A stretch of DNA of 64,000 nucleotides from Paraspadella gotoi. Lineage: Eukaryota; Animalia; Chaetognatha. The position numbers were made by a program, and so were the translations under genes. Shown here piece after piece: positions 12,489-15,400 of the stretch (positions within the stretch are counted from its first letter, which is position 1; each line of letters starts with the position of its first letter). The stretch covers positions 22,056,494-22,120,493 of the forward strand of contig CM119263.1 of assembly GCA_051294375.1 (NCBI GenBank). The letters run 5' to 3'. Below the pieces are notes generated by a model. It did no database searches. It was not told the origin of the DNA and saw nothing but the letters and a program-made list of their open reading frames with translations.

Positions 12489-15400
12489 TCACCAAATCTT
12501 GCAACTCCTCTCCGCCACCATGGCGTCCCCTTTCTGACAATTCATGGCCTCTCTGAATCCCTTCTGCAGGGCGACCGTGCCCCTGACCCGCGCCTCGCCC
12601 GGTAGATGTCGATCGGTATCGAGATAGTACCGGATGTAATTTGGATCAAAGGCGTCGCACCAAGCTTGGGCGAAGGCCACGTAGAAGAGTTGATCCACGT
12701 CCAGTGGTGTCGCGAGGGCTTCTCCGTGGGCGTCGATCAGCCGAAGCGGCTCCTCGGGCACGCCGTTCCGCCGACGGCGGCGCCAGATGTCGTAGGCGTC
12801 CTTGGCGAGGCGCAGCCCGGCATCGTCGGACATATTCTCGTCGAGGGATATTCGGGCGTTGACGGGCAAGCGTCGCCCGTCGCCTGCGTCGACCGTCTGT
12901 TTGGCGAAGTGATCGAGGAAGCATCGACTCCGGGCGGAGTAGGCCGACTCGCTCTCGGCACTCCACCAGTTGCGGAGGACGCCGTGGGAGTCGAAGCTTT
13001 TGCCTGAAGTGGAACGGAAACGGTGACAAATGGAAATGGATATAATATTTAAAATAATAATTGCTATCGGGAATGACATTCTTAAGGAGTGGTCCTTTTA
13101 AACAATTGACATATTTAAAAAAGATATTACATGTACCTCTTAATAAATACGGAAGTGAGTTGATTGGGAGTTAATAAACAGGACTGAGAGAGATTGAAAG
13201 CTTGCAGGGTCCTGCTATGTTATTGAATTATTATCTTGTAAGAGAGATGGAGGCCCTAACCCACCATAGCCTGTGCGAAGTCATGGACATGATAGCTTAC
13301 TTGTTATGGATAATTTGTATATGCATTAGCTTTAGATGCAAAGTTTTTTTATTGTTTCGAAACAACGGTGAAAATGAAACAAAAATTCGGACATGTAAGC
13401 CTTATTCCGCGCGAATTGGCGCTGAAGAAGGCCCTCATCATGTCCGTATTTATGTTTCATTTTCACCATTGTTTCGAAACAATAAAAAAACTTTGCATAT
13501 AAAACTTATCAACTGCAACGAAACAAAATAAATTACACTATGTATTAGTTAAACCAAATTCAAACCCTAATACCATAATAAATTGTCAATTCCTTCTTTT
13601 CTGTTAATGGGAATGGAATTTTTTTTTAAATTACTTTAAAAGAAGTAATCCCAGAGTTGAATTTTTAAACTTTAGTTTTACTAATTTTCACAATTCGATG
13701 TCTCTGGCAAATCAAAACCTCACCGAGTCGGTCGAATCCGTGCGTCATCTCGTGTCCGATCACCATCCCGATGGCGCCAAAGTTCACGTACATCGGCGCC
13801 TCTCGATCGTACAACGGCGCTGCCAGAATTCCCGCCGGAAACTCGATGCTGTTTTTCGTCGGATCGTAAAACGCGTTCACCTACGATTTCGAGGCATGAA
13901 AACTTAAGAATAAAAAAAATATTGGCAGCGGTGGGATTCGAACCCACGCCTCCGAAGAGACTGGTGCCTTAAACCAGCGCCTTAGACCGCTCGGCCACGC
14001 TACCACATTGATGATCAATCGATTATGACTCACGTTAGCCACGTTTTCTGTGCTCCACATTTGCCGAGTCCGAGCCTCGTCCGCTTGCATCCCGTAGGCC
14101 CTCGCCATCTCCGGGATCCAGTCCACGAAGTTTTCCAAGAAAGTCTCCGCGTCGACTTTGAGTCCCGAGTAGGAGTCGTCGACGAATCCTTCTGCGTCGA
14201 GGTAGTCGGGGTAGCTGGTAATTTGAAGACGTTGTTTGCCATTATTACAATATCATAAAGCCTCAACGAATTACTGTCGTATAGAGCTCTATCAGAAAGA
14301 AATTTATATTTTTGCAACGAAAACTATTCTCACTCTCAACTAAATATTACTAAGTTATTACTTGATAAACTCGTAAACAAGTTAAATCAAATACTTACAA
14401 ACAAATTTTCCCGCGAAGATCAAATCTCGATCTTAAAACTCGGGTCTTAAAACTCCCTGACCCTCTCCGTATAACCTCAGTATACTGGATAGTGGATATA
14501 CATAGAATATCCTCTCTCTCACCCCATCTTCTCGATCATGGCTTCGGCCTTCGCGAGGGCCTCTTCCTTCGTCGACGGAGACATCCAATCGTTTCGTCGG
14601 ATCGACGATTTCAACGCGGACTTCGTGTCCTCGAACATTTCGAGCAACACCTCCTTGTCGGCGGAAGTGAAGTCTTCGCGAACGTAAATCGAACTCACGG
14701 CTGAAAAAAGCTATCATCAATGAGTTATTATTTTAATAACCAAATTATTAAAATAAAAAAGTGAAGAGACAGTAATGATTGTTGTGTGTTAGTGACAGAA
14801 CCGTTCAATATAAGCAGTCCCTGAGCTTCGGATCAGGCTGTAACACCGTGTTACAGGCGGGTTAAGCGGCCCCTCCCTCTTAACTGCTAGGCGACCACCG
14901 GGGTAGAATCCCGGACCTTTGGGTTGGGAGGAGAATGACTTGCCTCTGGCACCAATGGCCGGAAGAGCGGTTGGTGGATTATAATCCACCATAACAGTAA
15001 CAAATAAGTAATAGATAATAGTTAATGGTTAAAATGTAAAACCAGGGACTCCACACTTCCACTCCTAACCTTTCGGCATGTAGTTGTGAGTGAGTTGCTT
15101 GATGCAGCTTGTTCGCCTTCCCTCTTCGTCGCCGAGCAATCCGGGAATGAGGTGGTTTAGATGCCACATTAATTTCCATGACATGTAATTTCTATGAGAG
15201 CAAGCAAATATTAATAGCTACTCTTTTTGTTTACAATCATTCTAAAATTATTTAAAGGTGTGTAGCCCTAAACACAGCAGATCCTGTCCAAAGTCAGGAG
15301 GCAAAATGGCCGATTTATTGAATGAATAAATAATTTACCACAAAAGCATTCCAGCATAACGGCGCAGCAATGTCGCACCATCCCTTCCAACCTGATATCC

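What the first reader, a model, noticed from the sequence alone, without database searches (positions are those of the whole stretch)
14761..14995. Dispersed element fusing a tRNA-like Pol III head to a circularly permuted twister-like ribozyme
Seen (element sense): 5' hairpin, a tRNA-like cloverleaf with CCC loop, and 2-3 nt later AGCAGT(P5)-TAAGAGG-GA-[C/G]GG-GGCGCT-U|AA-CCC-GC-C-TGTAAC/GTTACA(P3)-G-CCTGA-[TCCGAAGC]-TCAGG(P4)-G-ACTGCT(P5'). Known, recalled from memory: the rice twister reads UAA-CACU-GC...CCGG-UCCCAAGC-CCGG...AGUG-GA-GGG, with L4 CCC pairing to the GGG after GA and L4 GC pairing to the L2 GC. Here the L4 loop has CCG and the partner is CGG in the 24.4, 33.2 and 60.07 kb copies, a compensatory pseudoknot change. 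This copy has GGG, a mismatch. Caveats: P1 is essentially absent and P2 is short and bulged. Inference: a ribozyme-bearing SINE/retrozyme-like family, analogous to the hammerhead-carrying Sm-alpha SINE but with a twister; I do not know of a described example. This copy is sense to the neprilysin pre-mRNA.
Basis: partly seen in the sequence, partly recalled or inferred. Interest (0 to 1): 0.8.

Follow-up and report, generated by a model that had tools for sequence, protein, structure and literature searches.

The report
Twister ribozyme in mini-retrotransposon terminal repeat
A 232-base, highly repeated sequence in an intron of an invertebrate gene carries a tRNA-like stretch followed by a "twister" RNA fold predicted to cut itself; it is likely the left-over end repeat of a tiny jumping gene that would use two such cuts to make a circular RNA, and this particular copy is likely inactivated.

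Summary
The observation largely holds; the SINE label likely does not. The element (14762-14993, minus strand, in a neprilysin intron) belongs to a very abundant family with sharp ends. After a tRNA-Gly-like A/B-box stretch lies a P5-permuted twister-like fold: the catalytic G and A, both pseudoknots, P3, P4 and P5 are present. A descriptor matches 0 of 20,000 shuffles, but Rfam finds no twister. The family majority pairs CCG with CGG (relative activity 0.86 in the rice mutant scan); this copy has G·G (0.13) and is likely dead. Against activity: P1 is absent, P2 is short, and a competing hairpin is predicted. There is no tail. The ends read TA...CA, three copies show 3-of-4 matches as 4-bp target duplications, some contigs put a polypurine tract just before the 5' end, and one contig loops back into a second copy. 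This fits a solo LTR of a Helenus-type miniature LTR retrotransposon, a reading prompted by earlier notes on this genome. Likely cycle: Pol III transcription, one cut per LTR, circularization, copying by a Gypsy-type helper, as in plant retrozymes. Cleavage, circles, the primer-binding site and a two-LTR copy were not shown here. I found no twister-bearing LTR element in print.

The parts
14762..14993 (-). Focal copy, whole unit (TA...CA); likely solo LTR
   Evidence: 3' end from pile-up of unrelated flanks at 14761-14762; 5' end by alignment to 33343
14972..14991 (-). 5' terminal hairpin (likely U3 part)
   Evidence: pair probabilities 0.97-1.0
14964..14972 (-). 5' strand of a long-range stem that pairs with 14799-14807; intact in the 33.2 kb copy, degraded here
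14892..14960 (-). tRNA-Gly-like stretch; A-box-like 14943-14954, B-box-like 14901-14909 (first G of the B box changed in this copy)
   Evidence: sequence; ARAGORN calls the 60.3 kb copy tRNA-Gly(ccc); majority letter at 14909; box consensus partly recalled
14883..14888 (-). P5, upstream strand
   Evidence: 6 bp with 14813-14818; probability about 1.0 in the isolated core
14871..14882 (-). L2 linker, P2 strand GAGG (14876-14879), predicted general-base G 14875, A 14874, T1 partner 14871-14873 (GGG here, CGG in family majority)
14863..14870 (-). Linker in place of P1 and predicted cleavage site U|A between 14864 and 14863
   Evidence: position inferred from the twister consensus; not shown experimentally
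14857..14862 (-). Second A, P2 strand CCC and T2 dinucleotide GC
14838..14856 (-). P3 hairpin, 8 bp
14820..14837 (-). P4 (5 bp) with loop L4 TCCGAAGC at 14825-14832
14813..14818 (-). P5, downstream strand
14799..14807 (-). 3' strand of the long-range stem
14701..15069 (-). Host neprilysin (M13 peptidase) intron holding the copy in sense
   Evidence: exon-only cover in run X9
24327..24490 (-). Family-1 copy, 5'-truncated inside the tRNA-like part; the only window copy passing the strict twister descriptor
33109..33343 (-). Family-1 full-length copy, CGG partner, private mismatches in P4 and P5
41900..42171 (-). Indel-ridden duplicate of the 33.2 kb copy inside a roughly 9-kb duplicated block; not an independent insertion
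60226..60385 (+). Family-1 copy with the P2/GA/T1 strand deleted and the 3' end lost
59940..60147 (+). Second, diverged family (TG...CA): same layout, different but pairing P5 and long-range stem, same catalytic-loop block, L4/P3 missing in this copy

Best explanation
This is likely a solo long terminal repeat of an abundant non-coding miniature LTR retrotransposon (Helenus/TRIMp3 type) whose LTR carries a tRNA-like predicted Pol III promoter followed by a P5-permuted twister fold that is predicted to self-cleave, and the focal copy is likely inactivated by a broken pseudoknot pair. Shown here: the fold, the high copy number, the sharp ends, and the focal copy's private changes. Inferred steps: (1) Pol III starts in the tRNA-like part of the 5' LTR of a two-LTR element. 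[quoted passage not shown] (3) Because the twister is opened at P5, the two ends of that unit can re-pair through P5 and the adjacent long-range stem, holding the ends together for ligation into a circle by the ribozyme or a host ligase. (4) A Gypsy-type helper reverse-transcribes the circle and integrates it with a 4-bp duplication. (5) LTR-LTR recombination or short cDNAs leave solo LTRs like this one. A predicted competing hairpin likely dampens cutting. Rough odds: LTR rather than SINE 0.8; family twister cleaves 0.6; circle is the template 0.5-0.6.
For: Fold. Descriptor null test 0 of 20,000. P3, P4 and P5 form with probability near 1 in the isolated 24.4 kb core. The rice C27G+G47C pair, which the family majority has, keeps relative activity 0.86, while C27G alone (the G·G of this copy) gives 0.13 (PMC5113685 supplement; columns counted by hand and checked against the C27U and C27A rows). 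P1 is dispensable and P2 flaws are tolerated in natural twisters. The second family keeps 7/7 and 6/6 bases of the two catalytic-loop blocks but only 2/9 of the P5+linker stretch, and its P5 still pairs. The long-range stem shows two double changes and one wobble between families. LTR. Both ends are sharp, with unrelated flanks and no tail. Flank consensus at both ends tends to ATAT. Three of three copies with both ends checked match 3 of 4 bases as a duplication (background 0.072, 0.049, 0.075). In run X6, 11 contigs continue past the 5' end into a stretch that reads as a polypurine tract in element sense. One X4 contig goes back from the 5' end into the 3' part of another copy. Summed depth shows no step at the predicted cut (X4: 1.77M and 1.69M around it, 1.56-2.0M over the tRNA part, a weak measure). 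Animal Helenus have tRNA-like LTRs, 4-bp duplications and solo LTRs, and one starts with TA (PMC10886601). Plant retrozymes use this cycle (PMC4918200). Earlier unreviewed notes report two-LTR elements in this genome, one implying a 234-nt LTR (a lead, not support).
Against: No Rfam twister hit at E<=10. P2 has 3 bp with a bulge, and a slipped register that buries the general-base G is 2.5 kcal/mol more stable. A hairpin pairing the T1 partner with P2/T2 bases has probability 0.99, and the best fold is 9.5 kcal/mol below the canonical nested fold, pseudoknots not counted. One review notes that changes in P2 length might disturb the active site. There is no pseudoknot covariation within the family; the two minor T1 variants are CpG-type transitions at unequal frequencies. 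None of the three duplications is perfect. No two-LTR copy and no primer-binding site were seen in this window. The polypurine consensus has only 0.49 agreement, and the loop-back is 1 of 7,725 contigs. The only second-family copy lacks L4 and the T2 G, so that family may move without a ribozyme. In full-length folds P5 is weak (about 0.1). A sequence look-up did not link this unit to the earlier notes.
Confidence: 0.5

Rival explanations
1. It is an LTR of a Helenus-type TRIM, but the twister is a dampened or dead relic; the element is copied by ordinary LTR strand transfer from an uncut linear RNA.
For: Competing hairpin at probability 0.99 and slipped P2; no Rfam hit; second-family copy lacks L4; Helenus is described as an ordinary TRIM.
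Against: Family majority keeps every catalytic and pseudoknot base. The only variants above 10% in the core lie in the P3 loop region and at the outer end of P5. The T1 swap is one known to rescue activity. The catalytic-loop block is kept between two diverged families.
Confidence: 0.27
2. It is a tRNA-derived SINE with a twister, mobilised by a LINE (the RTE clade carries 5' twisters).
For: tRNA-like head. The P3/P4 junction resembles by eye the Schistosoma twisters in PMC8501958 Table 1. RTE 5' parts occur in SINE bodies. One copy is 5'-truncated with an intact 3' end.
Against: No tail; the 5' end lies about 40 nt before the A box; polypurine tract upstream in some contigs; no copies piling up at the cut and almost no tandem joints. 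A working ribozyme behind the head would remove the promoter.
Confidence: 0.12
3. It is a rolling-circle DNA element (Helentron/HINE or Helitron2 type) carrying a tRNA-twister cassette; the terminal hairpin and 9-bp inverted repeat are DNA signals.
For: Sharp tail-less ends, a terminal hairpin, an inverted repeat 37 nt from the 3' end, and no perfect duplication.
Against: The repeat is 9 bp and 21 nt from the 5' end, against 12-15 bp and 2-4 nt in HINEs. No T runs at both ends. A G·U-type wobble in the second family suggests RNA pairing. Near-match 4-bp duplications and a polypurine tract.
Confidence: 0.06
4. The twister likeness is chance within a structured repeat.
For: No covariance-model hit; the descriptor was written after seeing the sequence.
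Against: 0 of 20,000 strict and 3 of 20,000 relaxed hits in shuffles; correct order and spacing of all core parts.
Confidence: 0.05

Closest known systems
Helenus TRIMs (TRIMp3), Kojima 2024, PMC10886601
   Same: tRNA-like A/B-box stretch inside a short LTR, CA 3' end, 4-bp duplication in animals, solo LTRs, short purine tract before the 3' LTR. Helenus-3_MeDo LTR starts with TA. Helenus-2_SyJa/SyUm LTRs show by eye a hammerhead-like core after the B box.
   Different: No ribozyme is described for Helenus ('twister' 0 times, 'ribozyme' only in a reference title). The L4 motif of this family was not found in the supplement (line breaks can hide matches). Primer-binding site not seen here.
Plant LTR retrozymes, Cervera et al. 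2016, PMC4918200
   Same: Non-coding LTR element with a self-cleaving motif in each LTR; predicted unit without terminal repeat, circle as template, 4-bp duplication, alternative fold that masks the ribozyme.
   Different: Hammerhead rather than twister; plants rather than animals; no tRNA-like promoter described; circles shown there, not here.
Type-P5 twister ribozymes (described in PMC5408937; Rfam twister models)
   Same: Open at P5; U|AA, GA, L4 UNNNAAGC, T1 3 bp, T2 2 bp, P4.
   Different: No P1, P2 of 3 bp with a bulge, both P3 and P5 present, no Rfam hit.
Schistosoma mansoni twisters / T-variants at Perere-3 (RTE) 5' ends, PMC8501958
   Same: Twister tied to a retroelement, weak or absent P1, similar P3/P4 junction.
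   Different: Type P1, at the 5' end of a LINE, trims the transcript once; no tRNA-like promoter.
Schistosoma hammerhead SINE-like repeats (Sm-alpha; name recalled; described in PMC6765202)
   Same: Pol III promoter just upstream of a self-cleaving motif.
   Different: Hammerhead; tandem repeats; non-LTR.

Membership tests
Twister ribozyme | Catalytic A+1, A+2 and general-base G followed by A | tested here: met
   14863, 14862, 14875, 14874; no variant above threshold in the family
Twister ribozyme | Pseudoknots T1 (3 bp) and T2 (2 bp) complementary | tested here: met
   Met in the family majority and the 24.4 and 33.2 kb copies; T1 has G·G in the focal copy
Twister ribozyme | P4 stem closing loop L4 | tested here: met
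   5 bp, probability 0.92-0.99 for most pairs
Twister ribozyme | P1 and a 4-bp P2 | tested here: not met
   P1 absent (reported dispensable); P2 3 bp with bulge, and not favoured in folding
Twister ribozyme | Match to an Rfam twister model | tested here: not met
   No hit at gathering score in the window, none at E<=10 for two copies
Twister ribozyme | Covariation in the pseudoknots across homologues | tested here: inconclusive
   Near-fixed within the family; second family lacks L4; P5 and the long-range stem do covary between families
Twister ribozyme | Site-specific self-cleavage | not testable with these tools
   No raw RNA reads were offered
Helenus TRIM / LTR element | tRNA-like A and B boxes inside the repeat | tested here: met
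   function untested
Helenus TRIM / LTR element | LTR-type ends (TG or TA ... CA), no tail | tested here: met
   TA...CA in family 1; TG...CA in family 2, chosen by eye
Helenus TRIM / LTR element | 4-bp target-site duplication | tested here: inconclusive
   3 of 3 copies match 3 of 4 bases, 0 of 3 perfectly
Helenus TRIM / LTR element | Polypurine tract before the 3' LTR | tested here: inconclusive
   Loose-end consensus of 11 contigs in X6, agreement 0.49
Helenus TRIM / LTR element | Two LTRs around an internal part with a primer-binding site | not testable with these tools
   No genome held; none in the window; one loop-back contig; reported only in earlier unreviewed notes
LTR retrozyme | Circular RNA from two cuts | not testable with these tools
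   Contigs cannot show RNA ends or circles
tRNA-derived SINE | A-rich or repeat 3' tail | tested here: not met
   Sharp 3' end at CTTCA, then unrelated flanks
tRNA-derived SINE | 5' end close to the tRNA start and A box | tested here: not met
   About 33 nt before the tRNA-like stem and about 40 nt before the A box; usual spacing recalled
Helentron/HINE | 12-15 bp subterminal repeats 2-4 nt from the 5' end, T runs at both ends | tested here: not met
   9 bp at 21 nt; flanks not T runs

The most novel reading that the evidence does not exclude
An animal LTR retrozyme built on a twister: a Pol III-driven miniature LTR retrotransposon whose P5-opened twister cuts once in each LTR and re-forms across the ends of the freed unit to close it into a circle. 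With the hammerhead-like cores seen in wasp Helenus LTRs, ribozyme-driven circular replication would be an overlooked, repeatedly evolved feature of animal TRIMs.
Probability: 0.4. Interest if true: 0.8.

Novelty: new variant of a known kind. Interest (0 to 1): 0.64.

Why it matters
Twisters are widespread, but the only retroelement role in the papers read here is 5' trimming of RTE-type LINEs. LTR retrozymes are described there only from plants and only with hammerheads. A twister in the LTR of an animal TRIM would give a reason for the P5 permutation (re-pairing of the freed ends) and extend circular-RNA retrotransposition to animal LTR elements. It would also show that natural twisters without P1 and with a short P2 escape Rfam. 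Many copies in introns allow a genome-wide test: sense intronic copies should be depleted or inactivated, as this one appears to be. The same family type has already been noted in other windows of this genome, so this window adds detail rather than a new family type.

Tried and rejected
No whole genome is held, so there was no genome-wide alignment or covariation test. Rfam: 3 true tRNAs only; no twister. Pattern scans for relatives: metagenome contigs gave 9 matches, none with a P4 stem by eye and none with a relevant Rfam hit; prokaryote genomes gave 8 matches, all chance by context; viral contigs gave 0 in two scans. No RNA holder is listed on record. X9 is guessed RNA: it covers the exons and not the intron flanks, and 759 and 693 of its contigs match the element, but contigs cannot show the element's own transcription. 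Organisms B and C (X10, X11) laid 0 contigs, which is no proof of absence. No pile-up of copies starting at the predicted cut was among the loose ends shown, but 459 and 388 rows were not displayed. My first exact-match search missed the duplications; allowing one mismatch found them, after the earlier notes suggested LTRs. A GGYG/CRCC hairpin that seemed to covary between families was dropped: probability 0.0, and both changes are at CpG. The two minor T1 variants were rejected as covariation (unequal frequencies, CpG context). An HDV/theta-like fold was rejected by eye: too little room between candidate P1 strands. Host group unresolved: best named hits about 40-43% to echinoderm and mollusc proteins. 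The 42.0 kb copy was left out of alignment A2 as an error-rich duplicate. Roth et al. 2014 was not held and the CHiTA supplement could not be read; either could list related permuted twisters. Dfam, Repbase and SINEBase could not be searched.

Full report
Observation. The element lies on the minus strand at 14762-14993, in sense inside a 369-nt neprilysin intron (14701-15069). The window holds four more family-1 copies (24.4, 33.2, 42.0, 60.3 kb; the 42.0 kb one is an indel-rich duplicate) and one copy of a diverged second family at 59940-60147. The host is an invertebrate of unresolved group. In Logan contigs of the same organism, 6,290 (X1) and 7,725 (X4) contigs lie on the element, with summed depth of 10^5-10^6 against 23-30 on the flanks in X1. 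The tool warns that this is no copy number, but the family is clearly very abundant. The focal copy has two private changes in the catalytic loop (14873 and 14869; majority 97-99% otherwise), and the 60.07 kb copy has no L4.

Is it a twister? In order, the element has a P5 strand, UAA, GAGG, GA, a three-base T1 partner, a six-base linker, U|AA, CCC, GC, an 8-bp P3, a 5-bp P4 with loop UCCGAAGC, G and the second P5 strand. That is a type-P5 permutation (PMC5408937, passages). A descriptor built from published features, relaxed for a missing P1 and a bulged P2, hit only 24428 (strict) and also 14863 (relaxed) in the window. It hit 0 and 3 of 20,000 element shuffles and 0 and 2 of 60 window shuffles. 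It missed the 33.2 kb copy, which has a private P4 mismatch. In the rice mutant matrix the family's T1 swap keeps relative activity 0.86, and the G·G state of the focal copy gives 0.13 (PMC5113685, whole main text and supplement part 6). Natural twisters tolerate P1 and P2 flaws but less so pseudoknot mismatches (PMC11662667, sections 31-33 and passages). The second family keeps both catalytic-loop blocks (7/7, 6/6) while P5 and a long-range stem change sequence and still pair.

Against activity. Rfam finds nothing at E<=10. A slipped P2 register is more stable than the canonical one, and a hairpin that hides the T1 partner and the T2 bases has probability 0.99 without pseudoknot energies. There is no usable pseudoknot covariation inside the family. 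So it looks like a twister; formal membership is not met, and activity is about 0.6.

What kind of element? My first reading was a SINE, with a rolling-circle rival. Several facts did not fit a SINE. Both ends are sharp with unrelated flanks (176, 123 and 46 contigs at 14762; 139, 63 and 30 at 33343). There is no tail, the 5' end is about 40 nt before the A box, and depth shows no step at the predicted cut. Kojima notes that a ribozyme behind a SINE head would cause 5' truncation (PMC5786205, outline and passages). HINE criteria were not met (PMC4067079 and PMC5148889, passages). Earlier unreviewed notes on this genome read related units as LTRs of miniature LTR elements, and I re-tested that on my own data. 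The ends read TA...CA. Three of three copies with both ends match 3 of 4 bases as a duplication (background 0.072, 0.049, 0.075; none perfect; the second-family ends were chosen by eye). The flank consensus tends to ATAT at both ends. In X6, 11 contigs run from the 5' end into a purine tract in element sense, and one X4 contig goes back from the 5' end into the 3' part of another copy. I saw no two-LTR copy and no primer-binding site myself.

Mechanism (inferred). Transcription would start at the tRNA-like promoter in the 5' LTR; one cut per LTR would free a unit with no terminal repeat. In that unit the downstream half of the twister sits at the 5' end and the upstream half at the 3' end. P5 and the adjacent long-range stem can pair the two ends in nested order, which would place the 5'-OH next to the cyclic phosphate for ligation. 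Reverse transcription on a circle would rebuild whole LTRs. This explains why copies are not cut off at the ribozyme and why sequence upstream of the promoter is carried along. It is the cycle proposed for plant retrozymes, where an alternative fold also masks the ribozyme (PMC4918200, passages). The focal copy would be a solo LTR. Its broken T1 pair could reflect selection against cutting the neprilysin pre-mRNA or plain decay (6 private changes in about 200 nt); one copy cannot tell.

Comparison and novelty. Closest are animal Helenus TRIMs (PMC10886601: outline, first part, most of Results, Discussion, passages and supplement passages), for which no ribozyme is described. In its supplement, two wasp LTRs show by eye a hammerhead-like core after the B box (core motif recalled, not tested with a model). 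Twisters tied to retroelements are described at RTE 5' ends (PMC8501958, outline and sections 3 and 17; PMC7761336, passages). Hammerhead SINE-like repeats of Schistosoma are reviewed in PMC6765202 (passages and section 11 part 1). PMC10085705 (passages) adds no twister case. Searches listed no paper describing a twister in an LTR or in a tRNA-headed element; I saw only listings for papers not named above. Roth 2014, the CHiTA supplement and repeat databases could not be checked.

Verdict. A real, abundant element and a new variant of known kinds (Helenus TRIM with retrozyme logic and a permuted twister), untested experimentally; this copy is likely inactive. Interest 0.64; 0.8 if cleavage and circles are shown.

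Noticed in passing
window 59940-60147 (+): Second, diverged LTR-like family next to a family-1 copy; keeps the catalytic-loop block but this copy lacks L4/P3 and the T2 G. 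Whether the whole family is ribozyme-less is unknown.
   Followed up: partly
window about 24200-24326 (-): A further tRNA-like stretch with a good B box (24243) lies directly 3' of the 24.4 kb copy; possibly another Pol III-type repeat into which the copy is nested.
   Followed up: no
window about 31400-38100 versus 40100-47400: Roughly 9-kb duplicated block; the second copy is full of small indels and is bounded by N gaps, suggesting a low-quality haplotype or assembly artefact.
   Followed up: partly
window about 33360-33436: An AT-rich repeat of its own just upstream of the 33.2 kb copy (summed depth up to about 395,000 in X4, far lower in X6 and X9).
   Followed up: no
window 7577-10045 (-): Intronless 822-aa gene with SAMD1 winged-helix and PHD domains (KAT6-like/SAMD1-like relatives at about 40% identity over the C-terminal part).
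   Followed up: partly
window 11257-11328, 11559-11630, 13923-14004 (-): Two identical tRNA-Gly(TCC) genes and one tRNA-Leu(AAG) gene.
   Followed up: no
window 35978-36059, 44985-45066, 55060-55141, 56159-56240 and inverted at about 34331-34438: Another dispersed repeat family (D11/D12), not examined.
   Followed up: no
PMC10886601 supplement, Helenus-2_SyJa-LTR and Helenus-2_SyUm-LTR: Hammerhead-like core downstream of the tRNA-like B box, with complementary loops, not mentioned in the parts of the paper read; same layout as here with another ribozyme class.
   Followed up: partly
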